IMG/VR virus record: IMGVR_UViG_2609459801_000010
DNA length: 14,433 nucleotides
Direction: 5' to 3' (one strand)
Source of the DNA: a virus
Taxonomy: Duplodnaviria; Heunggongvirae; Uroviricota; Caudoviricetes
The notes under the pieces are model-generated. The model was not told where the DNA came from. It was given only the letters and a program-made list of their open reading frames with translations, and searched no databases. Below are positions 1 through 13,795 of this stretch, piece after piece (within the stretch, counting starts at the first letter, position 1; every line of letters begins with the position of its first letter). The position numbers and the translations under genes are program-made.

Positions 1-411
1 CTGATAATGTTCCGCGAACAGAATGCGCTCTGTGGCGGGGAAATACGCCCGCAGGCTTTCCTTGTTGCACCCGTTCCAGCGTCCGGACGGCTTCGCCCAG
101 ATAATATGGTTCAGCACACTGAAGCGTTCACGCATCATGATTTCGATATCAGATGCCAGGCGATGACCACAGAACAGGTAAAGACTTCCGGCAGGTTTCA
201 GCACCCGCCAGAACTGCGCCAGACACTGGTCCAGCCATTTCAGGTAATCATCGTCGCCCTTCCACTGGTTATCCCAGCCCTCAGGCTTCACTTTAAAGTA
301 CGGCGGGTCCGTGACTATCAGGTCAACAGAATTTTCGGGTAACGACCGGATAAATTCCAGGCAGTCGGCGTTGATTAACTCACAACTGGATATTTTTACA
401 GTATTAAGCAT
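1..411 (-). CDS. DNA methyltransferase (amino-MTase, N6-adenine/N4-cytosine class), N-terminal 137 codons; gene continues beyond window start
   Basis: Reverse-strand translation from ATG at 411-409 gives MLNTVKISSCELINADCLEFIRSLPENSVDLIVTDPPYFKVKPEGWDNQWKGDDDYLKWLDQCLAQFWRVLKPAGSLYLFCGH...; the DPPY tetrapeptide is the catalytic motif of amino-methyltransferases. Frame is open to position 1, so it is absent from the ORF track (no stop in window). Confidence 0.8.
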   Translation of the reverse strand, partial: MLNTVKISSCELINADCLEFIRSLPENSVDLIVTDPPYFKVKPEGWDNQWKGDDDYLKWLDQCLAQFWRVLKPAGSLYLFCGHRLASDIEIMMRERFSVLNHIIWAKPSGRWNGCNKESLRAYFPATERILFAEHYQ

Positions 412-545
412 GGATCATTAAGCCTGTCTCTGATAGGCTCATTCTGCTTTTGCGCAAAGCAGTGGGCCTGAGGTTTGCTTGTGAACCCAACGCATGAGCA
501 GATGGCTGGTGGGTGCCCCTAACACCCACCAGCCGCCCATTTACC

Positions 546-574
546 ACAAATAAAAAAGCCTTCACTGCGGAAGG
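546..574 (-). terminator. Putative intrinsic terminator after the small ORF
   Basis: Minus-strand hairpin GCCTTC-cgcagt-GAAGGC (plus 557-574) followed by TTTTTTATTTG; overlaps the last codons and stop of the 562-759 ORF. Confidence 0.5.
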
Positions 575-759
575 CGTCTGTAACAACCGAACTGATAGTC
601 TGCCAGACCCGCCATAACCAGCTGAGTCAGTATTAACTGGCAGCGTTCGCGTGAAAGGTAAGTATTCTGCGCAATCTCCCCGACTGTCGCCGGTTCGGTG
701 ACGCTTAATTCATTAAACACCACTCTGGCGGTTTCTGTCATATCCTGCTGTTTTAGCAT
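562..759 (-). CDS. Small hypothetical protein (65 aa), possible winged-helix regulator
   Basis: ATG at 759-757 preceded by AAGGGA-like SD; product MLKQQDMTETARVVFNELSVTEPATVGEIAQNTYLSRERCQLILTQLVMAGLADYQFGCYRRLPQ. The longer track ORF (to 846) lacks an RBS. Sits between the Q-like terminator and the methylase. Confidence 0.5.
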   Translation of the reverse strand: MLKQQDMTETARVVFNELSVTEPATVGEIAQNTYLSRERCQLILTQLVMAGLADYQFGCYRRLPQ

Positions 760-878
760 GTCTTTTTCCCTTTTCCGGTTAACGTGACACACCAATAACT
801 CTTGTCGAAAAAGCCAGCAAGCTGAAAGACAGGTATTCACCGCCACCAGCGCGTTTACTGTACTGACGCGATTTCAGT

Positions 879-904
879 CATAAAAAACCCGCCAGGCGGC
901 GGGG
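879..904 (-). terminator. tR'-like intrinsic terminator downstream of the Q-like gene
   Basis: Minus strand: CCCGCC-gcct-GGCGGG stem-loop (plus 888-903) immediately followed by TTTTTTAT; about 80 nt downstream of the Q-like stop. Confidence 0.6.
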
Positions 905-952
905 TGTAAAAAATCTTCTAACGTCAGGCATAAAACGCCTATCGTTAGAGCA

Positions 953-980
953 AATTTACCACAGATTCGGGAAAAATCAA
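953..980 (-). promoter_or_regulatory. PR'-like late promoter (-35 TTGATT, 16-nt spacer, extended -10 TGgTAAATT)
   Basis: Minus strand, starting 6 nt after the Q-like stop codon: TTGATT (980-975), TG at -15/-14, TAAATT (958-953). Gives a predicted ~60-70 nt transcript ending at the 879-904 terminator, like the lambda PR'/tR' unit. Confidence 0.45.
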
Positions 981-985
981 CAACA

Positions 986-1807
986 CTATCGCGTTACCCT
1001 CTTTAACTGCCGCTCCGCCCATGCCTCTTCAATGTCAAACCGAACCACCAACGTATCGTAAAAGCGTTTCACTGATTTTTTCCACGTATCAAGCGTGATA
1101 GCACTCGTCACTTTGCGTATGGCATTAAATGCCTCCGTTGATGGTAGTCTTTCACAGCCACGACCACCACAACGCTGGCAGTCTCTGATAACAGGCATAC
1201 CACGTTTTACCGACTCTTCACGATGAATGGCAACACCACGCCCACGGCAGTCTTTACAGGCAGTGGAAATCTCCCCCTTCCCTTTACATTCAGGACAAGA
1301 AACTTTCACCACCTCCCGAATTTTTTTCCATTCTTCCCAGTAAGACGGATACACACCTTTCGTACACTTTGCCCATACTGGCGGCTTGCCATCCGGATAC
1401 TGAACCTTGTTTGTAAAAACTTCGCCTTCAATAAATTTTTCCCCTCGGCAACAGGGGCACTGCTTTTTACTCGCTGCGCTGCGGGCATAATCCTCAAAAG
1501 CGTACGAAGCCATAATGCGCATCACTACCGGTTTTATTTCTGCCGGAAGTTTTCTCAACGCCGCCACACGATCGCACCGACTGAGTGCATAATCTGCCAG
1601 TAATTCTGTTGCCCGCGCCCTGTCATTCATACTGATGCCCATTTTCCCCAGGAACGCAGAAAACCCCATCTCAGCCCGATTCTGTGTCATGCCCTGCGCG
1701 GCCATCACATCAGTGATACTCAGCGCATCTTTCGACGTTGAGGCCGATGCATCAGTCAGGCCGGGGGATTTTGGGGAGTAGTATTTCGGTAAATCTTCCA
1801 GTTTCAT
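986..1807 (-). CDS. Antitermination protein Q-like (273 aa) with three DnaJ-type CxxCxGxG zinc-finger motifs
   Basis: ATG overlaps the rusA stop (ATGA at 1807-1804). Motifs CPECKGKG, CKDCRGRG, CQRCGGRG plus CPCCRGEK. Position directly after rusA and directly before a promoter-terminator unit matches lambdoid Q synteny. Family assignment relies on synteny and memory, not a search. Confidence 0.6.
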   Translation of the reverse strand: MKLEDLPKYYSPKSPGLTDASASTSKDALSITDVMAAQGMTQNRAEMGFSAFLGKMGISMNDRARATELLADYALSRCDRVAALRKLPAEIKPVVMRIMASYAFEDYARSAASKKQCPCCRGEKFIEGEVFTNKVQYPDGKPPVWAKCTKGVYPSYWEEWKKIREVVKVSCPECKGKGEISTACKDCRGRGVAIHREESVKRGMPVIRDCQRCGGRGCERLPSTEAFNAIRKVTSAITLDTWKKSVKRFYDTLVVRFDIEEAWAERQLKRVTR

Positions 1808-2184
1808 TTTTTGACCTGCTCTTCATGCATTATGGGGTAAATCTTCACCCCCAGACGTCCACCAGATACTGGCTGACCACGAACGATATTGATTTCATCA
1901 AACTGCTCATCGTCCATTAGCAACCCCGCATGCGTCAGCGCATCCAGCGGCGCTTTCAGAATATTGTCCAGATCACGGCGGCGCTTATCCGGTGGTTCTG
2001 CAATAATTTTTATTGCCAACCTTCCGGACAGGCTTAATTTCAGCCGCTGCTGGCGAACAATAAGCGCCACTGCCCGGCGATAACGCTCCCCGGCTTTTGA
2101 TACAAAATATGTGCTGCCACGACGACGCCAGTAAGTGTTCACCGTTGGCGGGTAAGGCAAAACAAATTCTATGCGTTCAGTCAT
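1804..2184 (-). CDS. rusA: Crossover junction endodeoxyribonuclease RusA (Holliday junction resolvase), 126 aa
   Basis: Product MTERIEFVLPYPPTVNTYWRRRG...PPDKRRRDLDNILKAPLDALTHAGLLMDDEQF resembles E. coli RusA (LPWPPSNNRYY..., [23 protein letters not shown]...). Start abuts the upstream stop (TAAATG). Confidence 0.9.
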   Translation of the reverse strand: MTERIEFVLPYPPTVNTYWRRRGSTYFVSKAGERYRRAVALIVRQQRLKLSLSGRLAIKIIAEPPDKRRRDLDNILKAPLDALTHAGLLMDDEQFDEINIVRGQPVSGGRLGVKIYPIMHEEQVKK

Positions 2185-3243
2185 TTATGCTTTCCACTTC
2201 AGAACACCCGAATTTCTCGCGTGCATTAAAAAACGAATCAGCAACAACAGCTGGCTGCCGTGTTTTTCTTCAAAATCTTTTACCCCGGCGTGTAGTTCGC
2301 TATGGCATTTACGGCACAGCGGAATAACAAACAAATCATCAGCCTTTGTTCCCATCCCTCCCAGTCCATGACCAATGATGTGATGCGGATCATCTGCCTG
2401 ATTGCCACACGTCATGCATTTCTGCGTTTTTACCCAGCGCGTGTATACAGGCATCTCTTCCCGTTGTGATTTCTGGCGCTGGAGATACTGAGCCGGTGAC
2501 TCGGGATCAACGGCAATGCTGACCACCGTCTTTTCCTGTGGTGGGTTCTGTTGCTGGTGGGCGTGAGGCAGCGGCGCAAGATTTTTTGTGCGCTGTTTCA
2601 GTATGCTGGTGGCGGTCTGCTCTCCCGGTATGATGTCGCTTTCACTGTACACAGAGCGAATTTTTTCCGCACGCAACCCCAGCGAACGACGTAATACCGC
2701 TTCCGGTAGCGCGTCCGCCACCTGATTGCGGACCGCCCACCAGGATAATTCAGCCAGAGATAATTCACGCTCCTGCGTACCGCTTATTGCGTGACCGATG
2801 ACGTCAATCATCCATGCTGACAGGTTTTGATGAGCAAGTTGCCCGAGTGATTCGGATGTCTGGTCACGCAGCTGGTTGTCGCAGTGCCAGCACAACACCA
2901 TTGCGCCGGTACCATAACGGTGAATGACGGTTTCGCTGTGATGATAATCGCCGTGTGGCCACTGGCAGGATTTAATATGGCGCAACAGCCAGTCAGACAA
3001 TGCACCAGCACCACCAGCAGCACGAATCACCCGTGCGTTACTGAAAAACGGCAGCAATGTTTTGTCTTCCACCAGCGGCTGGCGAGCGGCAGGAACGACC
3101 CCGGACGGCAGATTACGCATGCTTTTTGGTTCCGGCTCCACCAGTATTCTGCCGTTATGGAATGCTGACATTGATTCACGGCCTGGCTTAACGATAACCA
3201 GACCGAGTTCCGGTACCAGAACAGATCGAAGTAATACCCGCAC
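2185..3243 (-). CDS. DUF968/YdfU-like nin-region protein (352 aa) with C-terminal HNH-like Cys/His motif
   Basis: GTG start at 3243-3241 preceded by GGAGGTAAT; size and position (just upstream of rusA and Q) match YdfU-type proteins. C-terminus CMTCGNQADDPHHIIGHGLGG...LCRKCH resembles a CxxC...HH...CxxCH HNH signature. Confidence 0.65.
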   Translation of the reverse strand: MRVLLRSVLVPELGLVIVKPGRESMSAFHNGRILVEPEPKSMRNLPSGVVPAARQPLVEDKTLLPFFSNARVIRAAGGAGALSDWLLRHIKSCQWPHGDYHHSETVIHRYGTGAMVLCWHCDNQLRDQTSESLGQLAHQNLSAWMIDVIGHAISGTQERELSLAELSWWAVRNQVADALPEAVLRRSLGLRAEKIRSVYSESDIIPGEQTATSILKQRTKNLAPLPHAHQQQNPPQEKTVVSIAVDPESPAQYLQRQKSQREEMPVYTRWVKTQKCMTCGNQADDPHHIIGHGLGGMGTKADDLFVIPLCRKCHSELHAGVKDFEEKHGSQLLLLIRFLMHARNSGVLKWKA

Positions 3244-3244
3244 A

Positions 3245-3523
3245 TTACCTCCAGATCCGTTGCTGGAATGTGCGGGACGGACGCGCTGGCCGTTCTGAGT
3301 AAGGGAGCCTGACGGAGATTATCCAGTGACGGTAGTCGAGGCTAAGGGCTTTTTTAACCTCGCATCCGCGCCCGCGGTAACACTGAATGAGCCATTCAGC
3401 CTGTTCTTCGGTGCAGGGGTCGTGCTGATACCAGTCAGATTTGAATGCATGAGAACGCCGCCCGTGCCTGCTGGCAGGGGCGGCAGAGTTATCCGAATTG
3501 TAAAATTTGGTATCGTGCGCCAT
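3245..3523 (-). CDS. Hypothetical phage protein (92 aa)
   Basis: ATG at 3523-3521; stop TAA overlaps the GTG start of the downstream gene, suggesting coupling. No recognisable motif; weak SD. Confidence 0.45.
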   Translation of the reverse strand: MAHDTKFYNSDNSAAPASRHGRRSHAFKSDWYQHDPCTEEQAEWLIQCYRGRGCEVKKALSLDYRHWIISVRLPYSERPARPSRTFQQRIWR

Positions 3524-3790
3524 CTGTTTTCTCTGCTGGCGCAGCAGGTGCCAGTTGTTCAGGCTGACGTATGAAGTATAAATAAACTGGCTCCAGTGTA
3601 AAGCCCCACCTTAATGGAATAAAAACCAAACAACAGATTGCTGGGATAAAAATACAACGCTTATTATTAAAAGCGGTTAGATAAATTAAATTTTAATGTT
3701 ATGCAAATCTGCCAGATTAGCATAATATTTCATTTGAAAACCGCTGAAATAACAATCTTATCGGGATTAATCATATTAAGGTGAGTAAAT

Positions 3791-3877
3791 ATGGAAAACA
3801 ACAAATCTGCACATTACGCTCCTTTTTTATCTGTAATACTTTTTGTATTTTGTTGTGTATGGGCGGTATTTTTATAA
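3791..3877 (+). CDS. Candidate small hydrophobic peptide (28 aa), possible membrane peptide or type I toxin-like ORF
   Basis: ATG at 3791 preceded by AAGGTGAG at good spacing; product MENNKSAHYAPFLSVILFVFCCVWAVFL has a polar N-terminus then one hydrophobic helix; a terminator hairpin follows 20 nt downstream. Below the 60-aa track threshold. Confidence 0.25.
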   Translation: MENNKSAHYAPFLSVILFVFCCVWAVFL

Positions 3878-3892
3878 AACACACCCACAAAT

Positions 3893-3927
3893 AAATCAAA
3901 CCCGCTACAGCGGGTTTGATTTATATA
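3893..3927. terminator. Bidirectional intrinsic terminator
   Basis: Perfect inverted repeat AAATCAAACCCGC-taca-GCGGGTTTGATTT; the GC stem CCCGC/GCGGG is followed by a U-rich run in both orientations. Lies just after the peptidase stop (3932) and after the small plus-strand ORF. Confidence 0.6.
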
Positions 3928-3931
3928 GTTG

Positions 3932-6196
3932 TTATACGGAAACTGGCACACGAGCAGGCAATGGATAGTGAGCCCAGTTATTAGCATTTAAAGCTCTTAC
4001 GCCATCAGCATAAACTTGTGTGTTTCCATCTAATGATTTTAAAGTTACTACAATAGTTACAGGTAAAGGCTCCATTAAGGCCGGTTCATTCGCTCTCAAC
4101 GTTGTTTTAGCTTGAAGAGCCCAGTTACCCGAAGTAATTCCTTTATTAAATGCCTTGCGATGAATTTTTACTGGTGACCACTTTCCACCATGCTCAATTT
4201 GAGCTCTCTCATATCCAGATTGACCGTTTTCTCCTTCCATAGGTACTTTTCCTTTTATAGTATTATTCTCAATTAAGCCAAAACTTAGCTCTACGTTCGC
4301 GCGAACATATTCACTGCCGGCATTAGGGTTCAGTGGTGGTGCATATGCAGCAGTAATTACAATCTCACCTTTAAATTTTCCATTTTGAATAAGTGCCGAT
4401 GGTATGGGATAGTTTTCCTTTCTCCACCTCACCCCAGGAACCAAGAATGTTTGGAAAATCAGAGTAAACCTATCATCACTATCATATAAGGTCTCAATAA
4501 CCTCATTAGGAATTCCCGCTCCCAAATAGCGTCTTTCACTTGGCGAGTAATCAGGAGAAGATAATTGAGCGGAATGAATTAATAATGCTTTAATCAATGA
4601 TGGTGAAACATTAAAGTCTGAATTAGTGGCTATTCTCTGCCATGTATGCGCAGCTAAACTTGCCACAATTGGAGCAGCAAAACTAGTACCAAAATTAGAG
4701 CAAAGCCTATTATCTGGCCCTACGACCTTTAAACTGCTTGCTCCTACATTCCAAGGTCTATGAACCCCACCGCCAGCATGGATTATATCTGGCTTTGGAG
4801 TAAATACAGGCCCAGGGCCACGACGAGTATATGGTGTCGGTGTTCCAATTTCACTTAAAGCATCATTAGCTTCCATATGAGAAACTGAACCAACTGTTAG
4901 TGCTCGGACTGACTCTCCAGGAGAGGAAATTAAATCAGCACCTCCAAGCGGATCAGGATTTGGCCATGTACGTATAGGTTCATCTACATAATTACCTGCA
5001 GCAACTACAAACAAAATACCAAATTTATCGCTGAGCCGATCTAACTCCATCGCAAAATCACTAAACATCTGCTCATTACATGGTCCGCCTCCCAAAGATA
5101 AATTCCAGACTTTTATATCTGGTCTTTTATTTACAGCATCTGCTAGCCTCAGAATTAAATCTGATATATAAGATCCATTTTCATCTAAAGCACAAACATC
5201 ATGGATTTTAGATTTTGTATCAGGAATCCATGGATGATTGTCATTTAAAAAATGAGCGCCTGATATCAATGAAGACACCATAGTCCCATGTTCATAACTC
5301 GTATCAGGAGGAATTACGTATGTTTCCCTACTCACTACCCAAGGAGTAATTGTTGCCGCGATGGGGCTTACCCCAGTGTCAAATACAGCAACAATGGGTA
5401 ATTCTTCTGATGGTACGGGAAAGCTATTTGTTTCAATGCCAACAGAATCACTTACACTAACCGGGAATGCTGAATATTTTGGTTCTGGAATTAACGTTCT
5501 TATACCCGGGTAATCAATGAGAATGTCTAATATATATCTATCATTTGGGGATAAATCCATTATCCTTAATAAGGGAAGACCACATTTTGGTCTAATCTCA
5601 TCATATTTAACTCCGTGTTGTTCTAATATAGAAATAACGTTTTCATAGTTGTTGTAAGTTGCATCTTCACCTGTGTACTCAAATAGTCGTACAAGGATGT
5701 TTGATGATTCAAACAAACCATCAGTGCCTCCTGGAACCTTCCTATTCTCATCCCAAGGTTCAATGCGCTCAATCGCGCTTAGGTTAGCCAAAATCGCTTT
5801 AATATTCCGATGTAAAATGACTGACTCTAATACGTCAAAACAGCCGGCATGAGCAGCAACCAACATTTCATCTATTTTGGCATGACCGGCATTTTGCAAT
5901 CCAGCCTCTTGAGCAATTTTGTTCGGCCTATGCGTTTTGGCTATTCCCTGGTCTCTTAATTTGAAAACCAAAGTACCCAAGCTTCCAGGGTACTCTGAAA
6001 GTTTGGATTCTAAATAATGTTTACTGGTTGTTAAATTTCTTACTAGCCCTTGTCTATATTCGGCTGTTACATCAACCAATACCTTTGCCCCACCGCCAGC
6101 GTTTACTATTGCACCCAAGTCACTACTGGAAAAAGGGATTCTTAACATTGGGTTTGTAACTTTTGCGTTACTAAACTGTGTACCCCTTCTGCTCAT
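3932..6196 (-). CDS. Subtilisin-like serine peptidase (peptidase S8 family), 754 aa, no signal peptide; IetS-like
   Basis: Catalytic triad in canonical subtilase order: Asp in VAVFDTGVS, His in YEHGTMVSS, oxyanion Asn in VVAAGNY, Ser in NFGTSFAAPIVAS. Polar N-terminus with no hydrophobic signal sequence. Strong SD (AAGGAG/AGGAG) before the ATG at 6196. About 270 aa N-terminal and 200 aa C-terminal to the catalytic core have no motif I recognise. Confidence 0.85.
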   Translation of the reverse strand: MSRRGTQFSNAKVTNPMLRIPFSSSDLGAIVNAGGGAKVLVDVTAEYRQGLVRNLTTSKHYLESKLSEYPGSLGTLVFKLRDQGIAKTHRPNKIAQEAGLQNAGHAKIDEMLVAAHAGCFDVLESVILHRNIKAILANLSAIERIEPWDENRKVPGGTDGLFESSNILVRLFEYTGEDATYNNYENVISILEQHGVKYDEIRPKCGLPLLRIMDLSPNDRYILDILIDYPGIRTLIPEPKYSAFPVSVSDSVGIETNSFPVPSEELPIVAVFDTGVSPIAATITPWVVSRETYVIPPDTSYEHGTMVSSLISGAHFLNDNHPWIPDTKSKIHDVCALDENGSYISDLILRLADAVNKRPDIKVWNLSLGGGPCNEQMFSDFAMELDRLSDKFGILFVVAAGNYVDEPIRTWPNPDPLGGADLISSPGESVRALTVGSVSHMEANDALSEIGTPTPYTRRGPGPVFTPKPDIIHAGGGVHRPWNVGASSLKVVGPDNRLCSNFGTSFAAPIVASLAAHTWQRIATNSDFNVSPSLIKALLIHSAQLSSPDYSPSERRYLGAGIPNEVIETLYDSDDRFTLIFQTFLVPGVRWRKENYPIPSALIQNGKFKGEIVITAAYAPPLNPNAGSEYVRANVELSFGLIENNTIKGKVPMEGENGQSGYERAQIEHGGKWSPVKIHRKAFNKGITSGNWALQAKTTLRANEPALMEPLPVTIVVTLKSLDGNTQVYADGVRALNANNWAHYPLPARVPVSV

Positions 6197-7325
6197 ATGC
6201 TCCTGACTCCTTCAGAATGTTTGAAATTACTCTTGATGTAAGTTTGTACAAATTAGCAAGAACTCTGATAGAAAATAATTTTTTATCTTTAGAACGTAAC
6301 CAACGAATTTCATCTTCGTAAGTGCTTAAATTTACACCTTCCATAAGCGATTGCGCAAGATACAAACGCCTATACAATTTATGGTGATTTATCACACTTG
6401 CACCTTCAATAACTGCATCCCTACGTGCATCCAAGCTCACCTGTTCAATTATTGCTCCGGATAATCCCTCCGATTTTCTTGATAAATCACTTAAATCTAG
6501 ATCGCTACATATCATATTCTTTAAACGATTTTTCCAAATTAACTCTCTCTGATGTATGTCAGGCAGAGGCATTGGAATTCTGAAGCTAAATCGCCTCCAG
6601 ATTGCAGGATCCAGAAGTTGCTCATGGTTAGTTGAGGCAATAATTACCGTATCCTCTGATGCCGCATCCATATTCTGCAATAGTGAAATGACAACTCGCT
6701 GAAGCTCACCTATATCTCTCTCATTACCTCTTGCTCCAGCTAAAGCATCAAATTCGTCTAAAAAAAGCACTGATGGCCTCTGCATTACATAATCGAAAAC
6801 CTGTCTAAGATTTTTGCTGGTTTGTCCCAATAAACTACTAATCAAAGTATCGCAACGCACTGTAAGAAGTGGAAAATCTAAGCGGGTAGCGATGTACTTA
6901 GATAACATAGTCTTACCTGTTCCTGGCTTTCCATACACGAGCATACGACTCGGCAATGCTGCATCAGCTTTAACAAACTCATCATAACGTTGAACATTAG
7001 TGATAAACTCTTCAACACGGGTACTGATTGCTGCAGGCAGAAAAATCTCTGAACTGTCTAATTTAGGATAACTGACATCAACAGTGTTGAGTCGACTATC
7101 AATATCTACCGGTAATGAGCCCAGAGATATCCCACCTCCAGCCCTTTGAGCTCCTGCCAACGCCTGGGGAGCTCTAAGCAACCTTTCTCTTATCATTCTG
7201 GCTTGCTTGACCTCCCCTTTTTGTTCGAGCTTATCTGCCAGCAACCCAGCATAATTACTAGCCATCGAAGCATTTGCCTTTGTTGCACCTTCAATGATTT
7301 TTAACACTTCTGATAAATAATCCAT
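6171..7325 (-). CDS. AAA+ ATPase (classical AAA clade), 384 aa; IetA-like
   Basis: Walker A LVYGKPGTGKTML, Walker B SVLFLDEFDAL, second region of homology IIASTNHEQLLDPAIWRRFSF. GGGAG SD before the ATG at 7325. 3' end overlaps the peptidase start by 26 nt, implying co-translation. Confidence 0.85.
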   Translation of the reverse strand: MDYLSEVLKIIEGATKANASMASNYAGLLADKLEQKGEVKQARMIRERLLRAPQALAGAQRAGGGISLGSLPVDIDSRLNTVDVSYPKLDSSEIFLPAAISTRVEEFITNVQRYDEFVKADAALPSRMLVYGKPGTGKTMLSKYIATRLDFPLLTVRCDTLISSLLGQTSKNLRQVFDYVMQRPSVLFLDEFDALAGARGNERDIGELQRVVISLLQNMDAASEDTVIIASTNHEQLLDPAIWRRFSFRIPMPLPDIHQRELIWKNRLKNMICSDLDLSDLSRKSEGLSGAIIEQVSLDARRDAVIEGASVINHHKLYRRLYLAQSLMEGVNLSTYEDEIRWLRSKDKKLFSIRVLANLYKLTSRVISNILKESGAYEQKGYTV

Positions 7326-7518
7326 TCAACACTCCCACAACAAAAAGCCACAGCAATCAAAAAATGAGCACACAGAATCAAAATACTCTCTAATCGTAAC
7401 GCATTTTGAGATTTTTGATACGTTTTTTTGGGATTATGTAACGCCAAATGGTCATTTTGTGTCAGAAAAATAAATCTTAGTACCGAGAATATGTAGCTTC
7501 CATCCTTCATCGTTCTAT

Positions 7519-7950
7519 TCATCCCTGATCTCCAAGCCTCTCTCGAAAACCATTCTGATAAAACGCCAGCACACGCTGCATAACTTCGCTCTTCCGGCAC
7601 TCGCGACAGATTATGTTCAGACGCCTGTCGTAGCGGCGTATTTCTCCGTCTGGTAATGACCAGATAAGGTCCGGATCAACCACAGATGGTTTCTTCACCT
7701 TTGCCCTGGATAGTTTTTTGCGGGCATTTTGCCAGTCCTTACGAGCCTGTTCAGACGGGAATAACCCGTAACCAGAGTTGTATACATCGCCACTGGCAAC
7801 CAGCTCTCTGGCGAGAACGCTCATCAGATATCTTGTCGCACCTGTCTTGGCTTCCAGTTGCCGTAACGTCTCGCGCCCACTCCGGCGTACTAGCTCAACA
7901 ACCTGCCCTTTAATTTTTTCCCGCTCTTCTTGTGTAAATACTTTTGCCAT
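7519..7950 (-). CDS. Hypothetical phage protein (143 aa)
   Basis: ATG at 7950-7948 with GGAGG SD 6 nt upstream (preferred over the TTG at 7965 that starts the track ORF). Product MAKVFTQEEREKIKGQVVELVRRSGRETLRQL...; no recognised motif. Confidence 0.5.
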   Translation of the reverse strand: MAKVFTQEEREKIKGQVVELVRRSGRETLRQLEAKTGATRYLMSVLARELVASGDVYNSGYGLFPSEQARKDWQNARKKLSRAKVKKPSVVDPDLIWSLPDGEIRRYDRRLNIICRECRKSEVMQRVLAFYQNGFRERLGDQG

Positions 7951-7965
7951 AAGCGCCTCCGGCAA

Positions 7966-8727
7966 TCACTTTTCCGATACAACACGGCGGGAAGAATCAG
8001 TAATCTGTCGAACAATATCCCGGTGCTTGTTCAGCTCCCGCAGCGCGGCGCAGACTCGCTCCCACTTCTGGACATGATTTTTCGCCCGACGCAGTTCGCG
8101 GTTTGCCATATGCAGTGATGGTAAAACCAGGTCATCCGCTCGCGTTTCAGTAAACGATGGCAGCGACTGCACAATGTCCGCCACAGTTTCTGTTTTAATA
8201 TCTTCCTGTGTTGCAGCCTCCTGTACTGGTAACGCAACACCTGCGGTATGAGGAAAGGCCTTACCATCAGTTTCCGCTACCGATGCTGCTTTCGGCTCTG
8301 CTGGTAAATTATCGCCCGGTATGCAGTAACGAAATTTACCGCCCTGATTTACGCGAATCAGACGACCTTTGCTGATTGCCATTGCCAGCGTTGAAGCCAC
8401 TTTGCGTGATGTGGTACCAAACAATGTAGCCAGCTCATCAGCCATTTGTGGTCCTCGTTGTTCAATCGTCGCGGTTAAATCGCACTCTGAGATTTTCGCT
8501 ACTGTTGCTGTGGTGATTTCTTCCGGCAGTTCTGCCTGCGCTGGCTGTTCCTGCTGAACGTTGTTATCAGCCACACGCCAGGTGTACGCGCTTTTATCAA
8601 CAAAACCAGCCTTTTTCAGTTCCCATAGTTCGTTCAGCACTTCTTCACGACTGATATCAAGTCGCGCAGCAAGTTCTATGGATGTGGCTTTTCCCATTGC
8701 TTTCAGTGCGTCAAAAACAGTCTCCAT
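7966..8727 (-). CDS. Hypothetical phage protein (253 aa) with two winged-helix-like segments
   Basis: ATG at 8727-8725 with GGGAGA upstream (preferred over the longer ORF to 8778, which would overlap the DnaC-like gene). [44 protein letters not shown] and [32 protein letters not shown] look like wHTH units. Confidence 0.5.
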
Positions 8728-8749
8728 TAAATTTTTCTCCCGGTAAAAA

Positions 8750-9496
8750 TTACTTCGCAATTCCTGGCTGGACGACATTCGGACGCCAGCTCTCCCAGTT
8801 AAAATTCCCCCATAGCCCGCCGTTCATGGTCATGCGATCCATAATCCGCTCGCCGAGCAATGTTTTCATGGCCTCATAGTTCAGGTTTGTCAGCATCCCC
8901 ACGCTGCGCATCGACGCTGTCCGGCGATCAACAATCTGGTGCAGTACCACCTGCTCGTTTTTCGTCTCGCGCTGAATGCCAATTTCATCAAGAACCAGCA
9001 GATCCACTTCGCACAGTTCCCGCAAAAATTTTTCGCCTGACTGCCCATCGTCATAGCTGGCGTGGAGGGCACTCATAACATCAGCCACGGTAACCACAAT
9101 CACTGTCTGACCGTCTTTCAGCAGGCGATTCCCGATAGCTGCTGCTAAGTGGTTCTTCCCGGTACCAGGTTTTCCGCTAAACGCGAAATTTGTGCATCCG
9201 GTCATCAGTTCATCAGCGATAGATTTCGCCTGGCTCAACGCGTATCGCTGACCGTCGTTCTGCACCTGGTAATTCGCAAACGAGCATTTACGGTGCAACG
9301 GCTGGATGCCTGAGCGATTCAGAATTTTTTCCACCCGCAACTGGCGATTCAGGCGGTTGATCTCCTCGCTACGTTTCTGGCCTTCAGCAAGTTGCCACTC
9401 GTGCCACTCCGCTACCGTTCTGAATGGGGCGGTTACATGTGGCGGAGCCAGTCTTCGGATACGTTCAAGAACGCCGCCTGCCGCAATGTTTTTCAT
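8750..9496 (-). CDS. DnaC-like replicative helicase loader (248 aa)
   Basis: [39 protein letters not shown] is nearly identical in pattern to the E. coli DnaC Walker A region; Walker B LLVLDEIG. Directly downstream of the initiator gene. Confidence 0.9.
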
Positions 9497-9502
9497 GACA
9501 CG

Positions 9503-10465
9503 TCACCCCCTGAATCCCGGCGGTATTTCAGTGTCCGGTTCAGAAATGTGATTCACGCAACGCTGCGCAGGCAAACGCCCCAGGCGGATAACCAGTTCAT
9601 CCCATTTTTCCCGGAGTTTTGCCGGACTCATGATGTTTTTTACCCAGAACGAATCCCGCTGGAGACGCCCAAACATTTCACAAATTTGTCTGTGAGTTCT
9701 GCCATCCAGCATCCGCATTGTGCGAACGTCATTGGCCCATGCTGTCCAGTTGGGTTCTTTCGGTCTAGTGATCTCGCCATCATAGCTGGCCGCCTGCTCG
9801 TAAAGACTCACGATTCGTCCCCAGATCCACTGTGCGCACACCAAATCTTCCTGACTTCCCCACTGGCGTTTTTTCGCACTGAACACAACCGCGTCAGGGT
9901 GTCGGGTTAAAAAATCCTGTTCAGCCGTCTGCGGGTCCGGTTGCGAAGCGTCCGGACAAGAAGATCTTTTATCTGACGGATCAGGTTTTAATACTGACGG
10001 ATCGGGGTCAATCATCGGCCCCCTAATCGGCAGTTTTTTATCAACAGTTGATCCATCAAAATTTGACGGGTCAACCGTTGAGGGGTCAATATTTGACGGG
10101 TCAACTGTTAACGGGTCATTTTTTGCCGGGCTAATTTTTCTTTTCGGTTTATATGACTCACGCGCCGCCGCCGCAGCTGCTTCGAGTTTTTCCACATTAA
10201 GCCGATAGATATTGCTTACATTACGCCCACCGACCTTACGCTCTTCCTTCGTCAGCCAGCCCTCTTTCGCCAGTTCTGCAATAGCCGATTTCACTGTGGA
10301 TTCACTTCTTGCACCGATCTGACGCCGGATAGTTTCAATGGCAGGCCATGACACGCCCTCGTCATTGCTGTAGTCTGCAAGACGGGCCATAACCGCCACC
10401 CTGGATAAGATCATGCCGGTGAAGGCGCACCCTTCCCAGACAAGACCATGAAGCTTGCTGCTCAT
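9503..10465 (-). CDS. Phage replication initiator (O-like) with N-terminal HTH and DnaT-like C-terminal domain (320 aa from ATG at 10465)
   Basis: C-terminus ...NHISEPDTEIPPGFRG matches the DnaT C-terminus (...VSEPDSQIPPGFRG). N-terminal HTH-like segment; central low-complexity DPSxVD repeats encoded by the iterons. ATG at 10465 (after a GGGGG run) preferred over the GTG at 10480. Confidence 0.8.
   Translation of the reverse strand: MSSKLHGLVWEGCAFTGMILSRVAVMARLADYSNDEGVSWPAIETIRRQIGARSESTVKSAIAELAKEGWLTKEERKVGGRNVSNIYRLNVEKLEAAAAAARESYKPKRKISPAKNDPLTVDPSNIDPSTVDPSNFDGSTVDKKLPIRGPMIDPDPSVLKPDPSDKRSSCPDASQPDPQTAEQDFLTRHPDAVVFSAKKRQWGSQEDLVCAQWIWGRIVSLYEQAASYDGEITRPKEPNWTAWANDVRTMRMLDGRTHRQICEMFGRLQRDSFWVKNIMSPAKLREKWDELVIRLGRLPAQRCVNHISEPDTEIPPGFRG
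10048..10118. repeat. Origin-like iterons: five copies of TTGAcGGGTCAA-like 12-mers at strict 15-bp phasing inside the initiator gene
   Basis: Copies at 10048 (ttgatccatcaa), 10063 (ttgacgggtcaa), 10078 (ttgaggggtcaa), 10093 (ttgacgggtcaa), 10108 (ttaacgggtca); each is an inverted repeat TTGAC-nn-GTCAA; AT-rich stretch at 10119-10150. Same logic as the lambda ori inside gene O. Confidence 0.6.
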
Positions 10466-10487
10466 AAACCCCCCGAACACCGTGCTT

Positions 10488-10913
10488 TTAGTGCATCACC
10501 ACAGCATTCCCTGCCGGGCCGCCGCGATTCATCTGGTCATACAAAACAACCGCTGACGCAACAAAATCATCGACATCCTTCCCCAGCCGATCCCTCCGTT
10601 CGACGATCTCACGGTAATATTCAGAACTGTGGCTGCGCATACGGGCCACCAGCAAAGGCGGCATCGCCTTTTCGATCGCCGGTAACAGAGCCTGCATTTT
10701 TTCAACAGCATCAGGGGTGTCTTTATCCAGCCAACGGAAAATTTTCTGGGTATTACGGGCCAGGGCTTCCGGATGGCTGTCGTCATACAGTTCCGGGAAC
10801 GTCATTCCCAGCTCGAAATACGCTTTGGTAATTTTCGCAGCCGGCACTTTTTCGCCGTCCGGATGCGCCCAGACATTCATCGCCATGCGGATGTGTTCAT
10901 GCTTGATTTTCAT
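10488..10913 (-). CDS. YdaT-like protein (141 aa), likely CII-type regulator
   Basis: ATG at 10913 with AGGAG SD; begins MKIKHEHI; lies between the cro-like and replication genes as in the Rac ydaS-ydaT-ydaU-ydaV arrangement. Assigned from synteny and memory. Confidence 0.55.
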   Translation of the reverse strand: MKIKHEHIRMAMNVWAHPDGEKVPAAKITKAYFELGMTFPELYDDSHPEALARNTQKIFRWLDKDTPDAVEKMQALLPAIEKAMPPLLVARMRSHSSEYYREIVERRDRLGKDVDDFVASAVVLYDQMNRGGPAGNAVVMH

Positions 10914-11178
10914 GAATCAAGCTCCTAGAAAGTGGTTGTGTTAACGTTTTGGTATCTTCCAGCTCGGGCCAAATATTCATCCAATCAAAAGGCCTTAGTT
11001 GCTGACGTGTAACTTCACCATTACTGGCTCGCTCAATAAGGACACATAACGATGCCCCTAACACTTGACCTTTACTCAATGCCTTTCTTAGATAACCGAT
11101 GCTGGTACCACACTCGCATGCAAACATACGCTGTTCATCTGACGAAAGAGAATTGAGAAATATTCTTAATTCTTCCAT
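10897..11178 (-). CDS. Cro-like HTH regulator (YdaS family-like), 93 aa
   Basis: ATG at 11178 with strong SD TAAGGAG 5 nt upstream; HTH-like CGTSIGYLRKALSKGQ and ...NGEVTRQQLRPFDW; divergent from the repressor gene across an operator region. Confidence 0.65.
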   Translation of the reverse strand: MEELRIFLNSLSSDEQRMFACECGTSIGYLRKALSKGQVLGASLCVLIERASNGEVTRQQLRPFDWMNIWPELEDTKTLTQPLSRSLIHENQA

Positions 11179-11203
11179 AGCTACTCCTTAGTAAACACAG
11201 CAA

Positions 11204-11272
11204 AGAATACCCACAGGTAAACAAAAGTCAATACCCACAGGTTGTTTACCTTGCGGTAATCGCATCTATTAT
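11204..11272. promoter_or_regulatory. Divergent promoter/operator region (OR-like) between cro-like and repressor genes
   Basis: Two copies of ATACCCACAGGT (11207-11219, 11231-11243), 24 bp apart. On the minus strand they overlap a -35 TTGACT (11231-11226) and a -10 TATTCT (11209-11204) for the cro-like gene. On the plus strand a -10-like TATTAT (11267-11272) ends 6 nt before the repressor ATG. Confidence 0.5.
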
Positions 11273-11278
11273 TTACCT

Positions 11279-11698
11279 ATGGACAAATATGAATTTAGAC
11301 GACAGCAACTCATCAAAATTCGTGATGAGAAATGCGATGGTAAAGCGGTTAACGTGGCCAGAAAGATCGGGCGCGAGCCTTCTTATGTATCAAGAATGTT
11401 GTACCCAGAGGGGAAAAAGGGAAAAAAACGGATCGCTGATGATATGGTGGAGATTATCGAAGAGTCCTTTGGGTTACCCCGGGGATGGATGGATGGTATC
11501 GTTTCATCATCAACGAACACAGCCTCCAGTTATGAAACAAGGGTTCTAACGCCACGACAACGTATTTTTTTAGATCTCTTAGACGAACTGCCAGAAAGTG
11601 AAGCGGATAAATTATTAAAAACTCTTGAAGAGAAAAAACAGTATTACAATATGATCTACGAAGAAATCCGTAAAAAGAAAGCACAAAACGCATCATAG
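11279..11698 (+). CDS. Prophage repressor-like HTH protein (139 aa), RacR/DicA-position
   Basis: Divergent from the cro-like gene; HTH-like AVNVARKIGREPSYVSRML; no SD upstream and a -10 hexamer just before the ATG suggests a leaderless mRNA, as for lambda cI from PRM. Confidence 0.65.
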   Translation: MDKYEFRRQQLIKIRDEKCDGKAVNVARKIGREPSYVSRMLYPEGKKGKKRIADDMVEIIEESFGLPRGWMDGIVSSSTNTASSYETRVLTPRQRIFLDLLDELPESEADKLLKTLEEKKQYYNMIYEEIRKKKAQNAS

Positions 11699-11739
11699 CT
11701 CACCAAACAACTAGTCACCAGTTAAGACACCGCAAAAAT

Positions 11740-11778
11740 TTACCCATGGGTATTTACTTTTTAAATACCTATGGGTAT
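11740..11778. promoter_or_regulatory. OL-like operator pair downstream of the repressor gene
   Basis: Perfect palindrome TACCCATGGGTA (11741-11752) and near-palindrome ATACCTATGGGTAT (11765-11778), 25 bp apart; same TACCCAnnGGTA core as the OR-like copies; positioned to control plus-strand transcription of the ydfA-DicF-dicB operon. Confidence 0.45.
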
Positions 11779-11963
11779 CCTTCTTTTCATACCAACCCAC
11801 CCCGCCCCACAGAATGCAGGGCAATACTTCGAGTTACCAGGCAGTGGTCAGGGGTTAAGTAGCCAGCCCGAGGCGTAAGAACATGACGGCAGGGTTCAAC
11901 TTTAATAACTATGCAGCAGGTTTTTGTTCCGCTACCCCGGCGTTAAGGGGAAATGAGGTCAAC

Positions 11964-12116
11964 ATGGATATGCTCAATCTTGGCAACAACGAATCTCTGG
12001 TATGTGGCGTGTTCCCCAACCAGGACGGCACGTTTACCGCGATGACGTATACCAGAAGCAAAACGTTTAAAACTGAAGCTGGCGCGCGTCGCTGGTTAAC
12101 CAGAAACACTGACTGA
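11964..12116 (+). CDS. ydfA: YdfA-like small protein (50 aa)
   Basis: ATG at 11964 with GAGG SD 6 nt upstream; product MDMLNLGNNESLVCGVFPNQDGTFTAMTYTRSKTFKTEAGARRWLTRNTD; first gene after the operators, as ydfA is in the Qin dicB operon. Identity recalled, not searched. Confidence 0.5.
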   Translation: MDMLNLGNNESLVCGVFPNQDGTFTAMTYTRSKTFKTEAGARRWLTRNTD

Positions 12117-12127
12117 TGAGGTTGACG

Positions 12128-12529
12128 ATGGAATTTAAAGATTTACCAGTACCATTCCAGGAAATGGCATCGAATGTGGTTCGCTCTCAACTGGCGACTC
12201 TTGACCTGAGTACCGTAGAAAAAGAAACCATCGATACTATATCCGGTAACGTGCGTCGTGCCTTTATAGGTCTGTATGAAGAGAAGCGCCTATTCGGCGG
12301 ACAGAATTCGCCTGAAAACAAGAATCAAGCAAATGATGAGAAGCTGAAACACATTATCGCCTTACTTTTGGAAGACGCAAAACGTCTACAGCAACTGGAA
12401 CCAAATGCAGGCACAGAGGCCCGCATTTGGATTGCCATGAAATCACTCAAATGTGAAAGCAGTGATTATTTCAAAACAACAATTAAAACTACTCAACTTT
12501 CGGGAGAGCTACTGAAGAAATTGCCATAA
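12128..12529 (+). CDS. Hypothetical protein (133 aa)
   Basis: ATG at 12128 with GAGG SD 6 nt upstream (an alternative ATG at 12116 overlaps the upstream stop but lacks an SD). Lys/Glu-rich product MEFKDLPVPFQEMASNVVRSQLATLDLSTVEKETIDTISGNVRRAF...; no recognised motif. Confidence 0.5.
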   Translation: MEFKDLPVPFQEMASNVVRSQLATLDLSTVEKETIDTISGNVRRAFIGLYEEKRLFGGQNSPENKNQANDEKLKHIIALLLEDAKRLQQLEPNAGTEARIWIAMKSLKCESSDYFKTTIKTTQLSGELLKKLP

Positions 12530-12767
12530 GAGCATGGTCTTTCTCTTGTTCTGCAAGATGAGCATTAATACCTGGTATGGTTTTTTCAAATTTATCTATC
12601 TGTTGAATAACAACTTCGCGGTATACGTTTGTTTTTGTACCACCAAGCGCAGCCGTTAATGCAGAAAGCATATTTAGTATCATATCAGTGCGATATGAAA
12701 GAATCCTGATAGCTTCATCTTGTTTTTCAATAATAGATTGCAGGGCCTCAATTTGCTTTTTATCCAT
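12489..12767 (-). CDS. Hypothetical protein (92 aa), convergent with and overlapping the 3' end of the 12128-12529 gene
   Basis: ATG at 12767 with very strong SD AGGAGG 5 nt upstream; product MDKKQIEALQSIIEKQDEAIRILSYRTDMILNMLSALTAALGG... (coiled-coil-like then a hydrophobic stretch). No plus-strand ORF of 60 aa or more covers 12530-12806. Confidence 0.45.
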   Translation of the reverse strand: MDKKQIEALQSIIEKQDEAIRILSYRTDMILNMLSALTAALGGTKTNVYREVVIQQIDKFEKTIPGINAHLAEQEKDHALMAISSVALPKVE

Positions 12768-13098
12768 TTCACCCTCCTGAGGGTTGGTAATTAAGGAGTT
12801 CTCCACGGGTCAGGTGGAGTGCGTGCGCCGGACACGGGTGAACATCCGGCACTGACAGTTTACTGAAAGGATATGTCCCTGAAAAGTCAGGGCATAACGC
12901 GAAAGCGCACGGCGAAATTGGTCTCTCTGTACGGTGTCGTTAAATTTAGTTCGACCGTGCGCTTCCGGTTGTGGCAATCCGCGAAATGGTGCGGCGGTAA
13001 GTATGGCGGGGTTATTCCTTCCCCCGTTGAGGACACCGGGTTGTCAGGTTGACCATACGCTTAAGTGACAACCCCGCTGCAACGCCCTCTGTTATCAA

Positions 13099-13151
13099 TT
13101 TTCTGGTGACGTTTGGCGGTATCAGTTTTACTCCGTGACTGCTCTGCCGCC
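13099..13151 (+). ncRNA. dicF: DicF small regulatory RNA (ftsZ-targeting antisense sRNA)
   Basis: TTTCTGGTGACGTTTGGCGGTATCAGTTTTACTCCGTGACTGCTCTGCCGCCC matches the DicF sequence as I recall it; a T-run follows after the GGCGG...CCGCC stem; lies just upstream of dicB as in the Qin dic operon. Ends are approximate because DicF is processed. Confidence 0.75.
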
Positions 13152-13326
13152 CTTTTTAAAGTGAATTTTGTGATGTGGTGAATGCGGCTGAGCGCACGCG
13201 GAACAGTTAAAACCAAAAACAGTGTTATGGGTGGATTCTCTGTATCCGGCGTTAATTGTTAACTGGTTAACGTCACCTGGAGGCACCAGGCACCGCATCA
13301 CAAAATTCATTGTTGAGGACGCGATA

Positions 13327-13515
13327 ATGGAAACGTTATTACCAAACGTTAATACGTCTGAAGGTTGTTTTGAAATTGGTGTCACTATCAGTAACCCAGT
13401 ATTTACTGAAGATGCCATTAACAAGAGAAAACACGAACGGGAGCTATTAAATAAAATATGCATTCTTTCAATGCTGGCCCGTTTACGTCCGATACAAAAA
13501 GGATGCTGGCAATGA
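13327..13515 (+). CDS. dicB: Cell division inhibitor DicB (62 aa)
   Basis: Product METLLPNVNTSEGCFEIGVTISNPVFTEDAINKRKHERELLNKICILSMLARLRPIQKGCWQ closely resembles E. coli DicB; GAGGA SD 8 nt upstream; stop overlaps the next start (ATGA). Confidence 0.85.
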   Translation: METLLPNVNTSEGCFEIGVTISNPVFTEDAINKRKHERELLNKICILSMLARLRPIQKGCWQ

Positions 13516-13703
13516 ATACAGCATTTGCACTTGTTCTGACAGTTTTTCTTGTTTCCGGAGAGCCAGTTGATATTGCAGTCAGTGTTCACAGGACAATGCA
13601 GGAGTGTGTGACTGCAGCAACCGAACAGAAAATTCCCGGTAACTGTTACCCGGTCGATAAAGTTATTCACCAGGATAATAACGAAATCCCGGCAGGTCTT
13701 TAA
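13512..13703 (+). CDS. ydfD: YdfD-like small protein (63 aa) with N-terminal hydrophobic segment
   Basis: Product MNTAFALVLTVFLVSGEPVDIAVSVHRTMQECVTAATEQKIPGNCYPVDKVIHQDNNEIPAGL; translationally coupled to dicB; matches Qin YdfD as recalled. Confidence 0.75.
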   Translation: MNTAFALVLTVFLVSGEPVDIAVSVHRTMQECVTAATEQKIPGNCYPVDKVIHQDNNEIPAGL

Positions 13704-13795
13704 AACAGTTCCGTAATAAATATCCGGTTTCATTCTTATATGCCAGCAATGGCAGGGATTTGTTCACCCTTAAATCTGTAATGAGGTAAAACAAA

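What the first reader, a model, noticed from the sequence alone, without database searches (positions are those of the whole stretch)
3932..7325. AAA ATPase + S8 subtilase two-gene cassette inserted as cargo in the prophage: candidate antiphage system (IetAS-like architecture)
Two co-oriented genes overlap by 26 nt (6171-6196): a classical AAA ATPase (Walker A GKPGTGKT, Walker B LFLDEFD, SRH with RR) followed by a 754-aa subtilase with the full D/H/N/S catalytic set. The cassette is bracketed by AT-rich non-coding DNA (3524-3931 and 7326-7518) and looks AT-richer than the flanking phage genes by eye. It sits between the replication module and the nin/Q module, a position where lambdoid prophages commonly carry accessory genes. 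An ATPase paired with an S8 peptidase is the gene content of the antiphage system I recall as IetAS (Gao et al. 2020), so this is most likely a member or distant variant of that family. Its mechanism is, to my knowledge, uncharacterised.
Basis: partly seen in the sequence, partly recalled or inferred. Interest (0 to 1): 0.85.

Follow-up and report, generated by a model that had tools for sequence, protein, structure and literature searches.

The report
Known IetAS anti-phage module in prophage
The two genes are an intact, textbook copy of IetAS, a known ATPase-plus-protease phage-defence and toxin–antitoxin pair, carried as cargo in an E. coli lambdoid prophage and already labelled as such in public annotation, so the finding is correct but ordinary.

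Summary
Two overlapping minus-strand genes, ietA (6171-7325, 384 aa) and ietS (3932-6196, 754 aa), lie in a low-GC segment between the replication genes and the DUF968/RusA/Q genes of a lambdoid prophage. Both proteins match IetA/IetS models end to end: PADLOC E-values are 8.9e-143 and 3.3e-300, and both NCBIfam equivalog scores exceed their curated cut-offs. RefSeq annotates the same locus as iteA/iteS in 78 of 5,426 complete E. coli genomes, all at least 99.5% identical. All catalytic and ATPase residues are intact and invariant across homologues. Related phages carry other cargo in the same slot, and IetAS occupies other slots in prophages of other genera, so it is a self-contained mobile module. 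Published work on homologues shows the protease is the toxin, the ATPase is the antitoxin, and defence works by abortive infection. The molecular mechanism is still unknown. IetA is a classic-clade AAA+ translocase with an extra C-terminal helical unit. A conserved bipartite motif lies upstream of ietA. Novelty: already known. Interest: low.

The parts
6171..7325 (-). ietA (iteA): 384-aa AAA+ ATPase, the antitoxin/regulator component
3932..6196 (-). ietS (iteS): 754-aa S8 subtilase, the toxin/effector component
   Evidence: ORF. PADLOC IetS 3.3e-300 over residues 12-753. NCBIfam NF042956 equivalog 1041.1 bits against a cut-off of 900. D273/H303/N402/S505 are invariant in 40 homologues. The protein is 100% identical to a cluster of 1,093 sequences named IteS.
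6171..6196 (-). 26-nt ietA/ietS overlap (translational coupling), with an AGGAG Shine-Dalgarno sequence at 6200-6204
   Evidence: The overlap is conserved (26-56 nt) in the Klebsiella, Pseudomonas, Ralstonia, Morganella, Leclercia and Providencia loci.
5486..5698 (-). IetS residues ~167-237: predicted I9-like (subtilisin propeptide/inhibitor) beta-alpha-beta-beta-alpha-beta domain
4517..5398 (-). IetS residues ~267-560: S8 catalytic domain
   Evidence: Pfam PF00082 over residues 268-544.
4037..4471 (-). IetS residues ~576-720: C-terminal beta-sandwich domain
   Evidence: Secondary structure of the AF2 model. The 411-residue alignment to ProN-Tk-SP is longer than a catalytic domain plus propeptide, so I infer it also covers a further, C-terminal domain of Tk-SP (one search gives the alignment length only). 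No Pfam hit.
6210..6320 (-). IetA residues ~336-372: conserved extra three-helix unit after the AAA lid (motif FS.R.LA.LY.LS.R.I.NILK), possibly helix-turn-helix-like
   Evidence: pLDDT about 90. F351, S352, R354, L356, Y360 and R365 are invariant. Identity is unresolved: no Pfam hit, and only weak profile hits to mitoribosomal proteins.
7393..7422 (-). Conserved bipartite motif CGTATCAAAAAT-N9-CGTTACGAT, 68-97 nt upstream of the ietA ATG: candidate native promoter/operator
   Evidence: 92% identical over 37 nt between the E. coli and Klebsiella loci, where the surrounding DNA does not align. Also present in the Morganella and Leclercia loci and weaker in two others. Function not tested.
3891..3924 (-). 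Perfect 16-bp inverted repeat with a G+C-rich core and a T-rich tail, 8 nt after the ietS stop codon: probable intrinsic terminator
3583..7554 (.). Cargo segment as defined by comparison with relatives. 3539-3582 is a 44-bp junction shared by all backbones.
   Evidence: Phages 813R8 and Evi are homologous over 880-3582 and from 7555 to 7960/7953, and carry other genes in between. IetAS carriers in a Rac-like backbone share 3539/3541-9539.

Best explanation
This is an intact IetAS (NCBI spelling IteAS) module: a two-gene anti-phage toxin–antitoxin system carried as accessory cargo in the early-right region of an E. coli lambdoid prophage. IetS is a cytoplasmic subtilase that kills or arrests the cell when it is active. 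IetA is a hexamer-type AAA+ ATPase that keeps IetS harmless in uninfected cells. When another phage infects, a phage protein or a step of phage replication disturbs IetA's control. IetS then cleaves cellular proteins and the infected cell stops growing before the phage matures (abortive infection), which protects the lysogen population and the resident prophage. Shown here: family membership, intactness and mobility. Shown in the literature for homologues only: the toxin/antitoxin roles, the need for protease activity, the abortive-infection phenotype and a trigger protein. My inference, at roughly one chance in three: IetS is a zymogen held shut by its own I9-like prodomain, and IetA uses ATP to keep or reset that latent state by engaging the IetS N-terminal region. 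Blocking or out-competing IetA would then let IetS process itself and shed the prodomain.
Against: No experiment exists on this allele, and expression in the lysogen is not shown. No consensus sigma-70 promoter was found upstream of ietA, only a conserved motif of untested function. ECOR52 ietAS alone gave limited protection in a 29-phage panel (bioRxiv 10.1101/2022.08.21.504612). The gating mechanism is inference. The prodomain assignment rests on a predicted model. An unfoldase acting on a prodomain would more naturally activate the protease than inhibit it. The IetA pore-loop-1 position has Leu, not an aromatic residue.
Confidence: 0.88

Rival explanations
1. The pair works here mainly as an addiction (post-segregational killing) module that stabilises the prophage, as IetAS stabilises plasmid pTiC58. 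Phage defence would be secondary or absent for this allele.
For: IetAS was first described as a plasmid-stabilising toxin–antitoxin system (Yamamoto 2009, as cited in PMC13069673 and PMC8562856). The window's prophage appears to have lost its integrase side to an IS1-associated deletion, so it is fixed in place. ECOR52 ietAS alone gave limited protection (bioRxiv 10.1101/2022.08.21.504612).
Against: Homologues protect against phage, and that protection needs protease activity (PMC13069673; bioRxiv 10.1101/2022.08.27.505566). The cassette sits at a cargo-swapping site that holds hok/mok or an acetyltransferase plus a regulator in related phages. The two roles do not exclude each other.
Confidence: 0.15
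2. Same family but the opposite logic: IetA is the sensor and activator. On recognising a phage cue it unfolds or extracts the I9-like prodomain and so switches IetS on. It is not a continuously acting antitoxin.
For: IetA is a classic-clade AAA+ translocase. IetS looks like a prodomain-inhibited zymogen. Removing the propeptide is the normal activation step of subtilases (established subtilase biochemistry).
Against: The genetics in three homologous systems point the other way: losing the ATPase is lethal or cannot be cloned, while the protease alone is toxic (PMC13069673; PMC8562856).
Confidence: 0.12
3. The genes are a phage morphogenesis or maturation module (a head protease with an ATPase) and not accessory cargo.
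For: They lie inside a prophage. Some phages do encode maturation proteases.
Against: They sit in the early region between the replication genes and Q, not among the head genes. Closely related phages lack them. They occur outside prophages in Pseudomonas and Ralstonia. Their composition is foreign to the phage. The family-specific defence models match end to end.
Confidence: 0.01
4. The cassette is silent or decaying cargo, not expressed in the lysogen.
For: No consensus promoter was found. AT-rich foreign DNA in E. coli is often silenced (general knowledge). A few genomes carry an IS3 insertion or a differently annotated iteS (H15, H84 and H85).
Against: Both ORFs are intact with all catalytic residues. 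The 78 copies are at least 99.5% identical. A conserved upstream motif travels with the cassette across genera.
Confidence: 0.05

Closest known systems
IetAS / IteAS anti-phage system (Gao et al. 2020, as cited in PMC13069673; PADLOC PDLC02196/PDLC02197; NCBIfam NF042959/NF042956)
   Same: Gene order, overlap, protein sizes, full-length model matches above the curated cut-offs, and intact catalytic residues. RefSeq gives identical loci these names.
   Different: Nothing detectable. This is the common E. coli allele. Whether it is the exact allele that was tested could not be checked, because Gao 2020 is not held in the library.
IetAS toxin–antitoxin of Agrobacterium plasmid pTiC58 (Yamamoto et al. 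2009, as cited in PMC13069673 and PMC8562856)
   Same: An AAA-ATPase antitoxin with a subtilase toxin, in a two-gene operon on a mobile element.
   Different: That one is on a plasmid and was described for plasmid stability and incompatibility. This one is prophage cargo.
[quoted passage not shown]
   Same: Antitoxin gene upstream, with no intergenic gap. Sizes are similar (353 and 757 aa against 384 and 754 aa). The protease is toxic in E. coli.
   Different: It is chromosomal in Mollicutes and was not tested for phage defence. Its relatedness to the window's proteins was not measured.
ietHAS (Liu-DS4), an IetAS variant with an SNF2 helicase (PMC13069673)
   Same: It shares the IetA and IetS components and the dependence on the protease.
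   Different: It needs a third gene, ietH. No helicase gene adjoins the pair here: the neighbours are DUF977 and a 92-aa ORF.
Propeptide-regulated subtilases (pro-subtilisin E, Tk-SP, PCSK9, clostridial Csp proteases)
   Same: Predicted I9-like domain directly N-terminal to the S8 domain. These are the best structural matches.
   Different: Those enzymes are secreted or spore-associated and are activated by autoprocessing alone. IetS is cytoplasmic, has an additional N-terminal domain of about 150 residues, and is partnered with an AAA+ ATPase.

Membership tests
IetAS (IteAS) defence / toxin–antitoxin system | Two co-oriented adjacent genes, with the AAA ATPase gene upstream of the S8 peptidase gene | tested here: met
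   6171-7325 and 3932-6196, both on the minus strand, overlapping by 26 nt
IetAS (IteAS) defence / toxin–antitoxin system | The ATPase matches the family-specific IetA model over its full length and above the curated threshold | tested here: met
   NCBIfam NF042959 equivalog, 526.6 bits against a cut-off of 510, profile positions 1-367 of 367. PADLOC PDLC02196, 8.9e-143.
IetAS (IteAS) defence / toxin–antitoxin system | The peptidase matches the family-specific IetS model over its full length and above the curated threshold | tested here: met
   NCBIfam NF042956 equivalog, 1041.1 bits against a cut-off of 900, profile positions 1-747 of 747. PADLOC PDLC02197, 3.3e-300.
IetAS (IteAS) defence / toxin–antitoxin system | Intact catalytic machinery: S8 Asp/His/Ser with the oxyanion Asn, and Walker A/B with arginine fingers | tested here: met
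   D273, H303, N402 and S505 in IetS; K138, D190/E191 and R244/R245 in IetA. All are invariant in the homologue alignments.
IetAS (IteAS) defence / toxin–antitoxin system | Confers resistance to phage, dependent on protease activity | not testable with these tools
   Reported for homologues only (PMC13069673; bioRxiv 10.1101/2022.08.27.505566; bioRxiv 10.1101/2022.08.21.504612)
IetAS (IteAS) defence / toxin–antitoxin system | The protease is toxic and the ATPase neutralises it | not testable with these tools
   Reported for homologues (PMC13069673; PMC8562856)
ietHAS (helicase-containing variant) | An SNF2-family helicase gene, ietH, in the operon | tested here: not met
   The adjacent genes are DUF977 and a 92-aa ORF with no domain. 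No helicase is present.
CBASS-associated TRIP13/HORMA regulators | A TRIP13-type AAA+ protein encoded beside HORMA and CD-NTase genes | tested here: not met
   The TRIP13 models hit only the AAA core (2.4e-16), far weaker than IetA. No HORMA or CD-NTase gene is in the window.
Phage head-maturation protease module | Located within the head-morphogenesis genes and conserved among related phages | tested here: not met
   The pair lies in the early region between the replication genes and Q. It is absent from the related phages 813R8 and Evi.

The most novel reading that the evidence does not exclude
The IetAS mechanism is still undescribed, and this locus suggests a concrete model. An AAA+ translocase would continuously police a cytoplasmic subtilase zymogen through the zymogen's I9-like prodomain. 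The conserved C-terminal three-helix unit of IetA would bind the conserved bipartite motif upstream of ietA to autoregulate the operon. If true, this would be a new way of gating a suicide protease in bacterial immunity. It would be a property of the whole known family, not of this locus.
Probability: 0.25. Interest if true: 0.45.

Novelty: already known. Interest (0 to 1): 0.15.

Why it matters
As a discovery it does not matter much. Standard tools (PADLOC, NCBI PGAP) already name these genes, and 1.4% of complete E. coli genomes carry the same allele. It has two uses. First, it is a clean natural example of a defence module swapping in and out of one cargo slot in lambdoid prophages. Second, the molecular mechanism of IetAS is still open, and the features assembled here (prodomain-type zymogen, translocase-type ATPase, conserved upstream motif) give specific experiments to run on an easily cloned E. 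coli allele.

Tried and rejected
1. Pfam on the accessory regions (IetA 1-114 and 308-384; IetS 1-267 and 547-754) at E<=10 found nothing.
2. A profile of the IetA C-terminal unit against PDB sequences gave only weak hits to mitoribosomal proteins (best 2.6e-4). The helix-turn-helix idea is therefore unresolved.
3. Sequence search of PDB found no solved IetS-like protein beyond generic subtilases (about 1e-5) and only generic AAA hits for IetA.
4. Consensus promoter scans upstream of ietA, both standard and relaxed, found nothing convincing. The best candidate scored 8/12 with a 19-nt spacer.
5. A repeat search found no direct or inverted repeats bracketing the cassette, so there is no sign of a transposon or att-type insertion. 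The boundaries look like homologous-recombination mosaic joints.
6. Rfam found no RNA family in or beside the cassette. The only hit is DicF, far away.
7. The DNA downstream of ietS (3540-3931) is not conserved in the diverged loci.
8. Gao et al. 2020 and Yamamoto et al. 2009 could not be read. What they showed is cited second-hand, and identity to the tested alleles could not be verified.
9. Neighbouring genes were screened against PADLOC. Only weak partial P-loop or HTH hits appeared, so no third component or second system is evident.
10. A morphogenetic-protease reading was considered and rejected (see rivals).
Full report
OBSERVATION. The window contains two minus-strand ORFs at exactly the reported coordinates: 6171-7325 (384 aa) and 3932-6196 (754 aa), overlapping by 26 nt. 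The translations carry the stated motifs. The ATPase has Walker A GKPGTGKT (residue 132), Walker B LFLDEFD (187) and WRRF (243). The peptidase has FDTGV (D273), HGT (H303), AAGN (N402) and GTSFA (S505). An AGGAG Shine-Dalgarno sequence lies just upstream of the ietS ATG at 6196 and a GGGAG upstream of the ietA ATG. The alternative internal Met17 of IetS has none, so the overlapping annotation is the better one. Pfam gives AAA (2.6e-30) and Peptidase_S8 (5.6e-26).

The compositional contrast is real and strong. GC is 0.40 for both genes and 0.34-0.35 for the two spacers, against 0.49-0.56 for eight flanking genes. GC3 is 0.27 and 0.33 against 0.44-0.62. Pfam on the window's own neighbouring ORFs confirms the stated position. 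The order is: O-like HTH_36 protein, IstB/DnaC-like loader, DUF1627, DUF977, then the pair, then a 92-aa ORF, DUF968, RusA and antiterminator Q.

IDENTITY. Both proteins match defence-family models end to end. PADLOC IetA PDLC02196 scores 8.9e-143 (residues 1-374 on profile 1-371 of 374). PADLOC IetS PDLC02197 scores 3.3e-300 (residues 12-753 on profile 3-748 of 749). The NCBIfam equivalog models are exceeded: IteA_antiphage 526.6 bits (cut-off 510) and IteS_antiphage 1041.1 bits (cut-off 900), each covering the whole profile. The next best families (proteasome-activating nucleotidase, CDC48, FtsH, mycosin) fall far below their cut-offs.

In RefSeq the same DNA is annotated 'iteA: anti-phage ATPase IteA' and 'iteS: S8 family anti-phage peptidase IteS'. 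The coding DNA is found in 78 of 5,426 complete E. coli genomes. Each has one copy, always chromosomal, at 99.5% identity or more. The IetS protein is 100% identical to a cluster of 1,093 sequences that sources name IteS. Homologues of 50-85% identity and nearly constant length occur across Enterobacterales, Pseudomonas, Aeromonas, Burkholderia, Comamonas and Ralstonia. In alignments of 40 IetS and 32 IetA sequences, every catalytic or nucleotide-binding residue is invariant. Every defining feature of IetAS that sequence can test is therefore met. The locus is a standard member, not a distant variant.

CONTEXT AND BOUNDARIES. Window 1-13977 is 99.97% identical to a lambdoid prophage next to ompW in E. 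coli strain 102651. Two related phages, vB_EcoS-813R8 and Evi, share the left flank (880-3582, 87-89% identity) and the right flank (from 7555). Between these flanks they carry different genes. 813R8 has hok/mok-type 'host killer' genes and small ORFs. Evi has an acetyltransferase and a regulator.

Conversely, phage vB_EcoS-683R6 and strain Trh52 carry the same cassette at about 97.5% identity over 3539/3541-9539, in a Rac-like backbone next to trkG with different downstream genes (DUF1367, DUF1364, DUF1133). So the slot between the DUF977 gene and the nin-like genes is a cargo-exchange site. The cargo segment is about 3583-7554, with a 44-bp junction (3539-3582) common to all backbones. No repeats bracket it, so exchange by recombination between phages is more likely than transposition.

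In other genera the pair is again prophage cargo, but in varied slots. In Klebsiella and Leclercia it sits between the replication genes and DinI/DUF968 or NinG/Q. In Morganella it sits beside the integrase. In Providencia it sits between the holin and the lysozyme genes. In Pseudomonas it lies among Fic, NERD and AAA_15/21 genes, and in Ralstonia among unrelated chromosomal genes. Only the two genes and their overlap are conserved, so the module is self-contained.

CIS ELEMENTS. A perfect 16-bp inverted repeat with a G+C-rich core and a T-rich tail begins 8 nt after the ietS stop codon (3891-3924). It is a likely terminator. No consensus sigma-70 promoter lies upstream of ietA. However, a bipartite motif, CGTATCAAAAAT-N9-CGTTACGAT (7393-7422, 68-97 nt before the ATG), is 92% conserved over 37 nt between the E. 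coli and Klebsiella loci. It is also present in Morganella and Leclercia, although the surrounding DNA cannot be aligned. Two conserved blocks around a variable spacer is what a promoter or operator that travels with the cassette would look like. Its function is untested.

HOW IT MOST LIKELY WORKS. The literature on homologues reports the following.
- IetAS was first found as a plasmid-stabilising toxin–antitoxin pair, with the serine protease as toxin and the ATPase as antitoxin.
- Protease activity is needed for defence.
- Plasmids with mutated ietA could not be built.
- The anti-phage mechanism 'remains unknown' (all four from PMC13069673, April 2026).
- In Mycoplasma, deleting the ATPase of an AAA/subtilase pair of the same sizes is lethal, and the protease is toxic in E. 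coli (PMC8562856).
- A B. cereus ietAS collapses cultures at high MOI and becomes toxic when the SPbeta protein YosG is expressed. Escape mutations also map to phage replication proteins (bioRxiv 10.1101/2022.08.27.505566).
- An E. coli ietAS from ECOR52 gave limited protection alone and synergy with Zorya II against T3. The authors suggest that its mutual exclusion with Zorya II may reflect one of the two systems lying within a prophage (bioRxiv 10.1101/2022.08.21.504612).

I therefore commit to this explanation. IetA holds IetS latent. Infection by another phage disables or diverts IetA. IetS then cleaves cellular proteins and aborts the infection. My added and unproven step (about one chance in three) is that latency resides in the I9-like prodomain and that IetA maintains it using ATP. 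The main mechanistic rival, that IetA extracts the prodomain to activate IetS, fits the folds but conflicts with the antitoxin genetics.

COMPARISON AND NOVELTY. The locus is the common E. coli allele of a published and routinely annotated defence system. The helicase-containing ietHAS variant is excluded, since no helicase is present. So are TRIP13/CBASS regulators and a head-maturation role. Novelty is 'already known'. The only new material is descriptive: the cargo breakpoints, the prodomain-type prediction for IetS, the extra C-terminal unit of IetA and the conserved upstream motif. These observations apply to the whole family, and each would need experiments.

VERDICT. The finding is ordinary, with interest about 0.15.

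Noticed in passing
window 13101-13152 (+): DicF antisense sRNA (Rfam RF00039, 76.7 bits against a gathering score of 48). In the near-identical annotated record, dicB (about 13328-13516) and ydfD follow it. This is the Qin/Rac-type cell-division-inhibition operon.
   Followed up: partly
window 13978-14433: The window's match to the strain 102651 prophage stops at 13977. The last 456 nt match an IS1 copy that lies 4.5 kb further on in that strain. So here an IS1 abuts and truncates the 3'-5' exonuclease-domain gene. The exo, xis, int and ompW side may be deleted, which would make this prophage defective.
   Followed up: partly
L003 4116-6171 and L004 4128-6375 (the slot equivalent to window 3583-7554): Related phages carry other cargo in the same slot. 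vB_EcoS-813R8 has a hok/mok-type 'host killer' gene plus four small ORFs. Phage Evi has MokW, an acetyltransferase and a transcriptional regulator. The site is a hotspot for accessory genes.
   Followed up: partly
L013 1872-5259; L010 1860-5265: In a Providencia prophage IetAS is inserted between the holin and lysozyme genes. In Morganella it lies at the prophage end beside the integrase and icd. The same module uses several different cargo sites.
   Followed up: no
window 3776-3814 (-): A 12-codon mini-ORF (MCRFVVFHIYSP) with a near-perfect Shine-Dalgarno sequence (AAGGAG, then 5 nt, then ATG) lies in the AT-rich spacer downstream of the ietS terminator. This stretch is not conserved in the diverged loci, so it may be chance.
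   Followed up: no
hits H15, H84 and H85 (E. coli F2_81, NR3736, B19695): A few carriers seem to have damaged copies. In F2_81 the match (query window 3400-7700) is split in two with an IS3 family transposase in between; the ietA/ietS coding DNA itself still matches in one piece (H97), so the insertion seems to lie in the flanking DNA. In two others the peptidase is annotated only as 'S8 family peptidase' plus a hypothetical protein, which suggests a frameshift.
   Followed up: no
window 10488-11178 (-): The genes in the cro/cII positions of the immunity region match the Pfam families YdaS_toxin and YdaT_toxin, as in the Rac prophage. Despite the family names, they occupy the usual regulatory positions.
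   Followed up: no
window 7301-7600 (-): A 99-aa GTG ORF spans the ietA upstream spacer and overlaps the end of DUF977. The phage 683R6 record annotates it as 'kinase (fragment)', but RefSeq does not call it. It is probably spurious, and it covers the conserved upstream motif.
   Followed up: no
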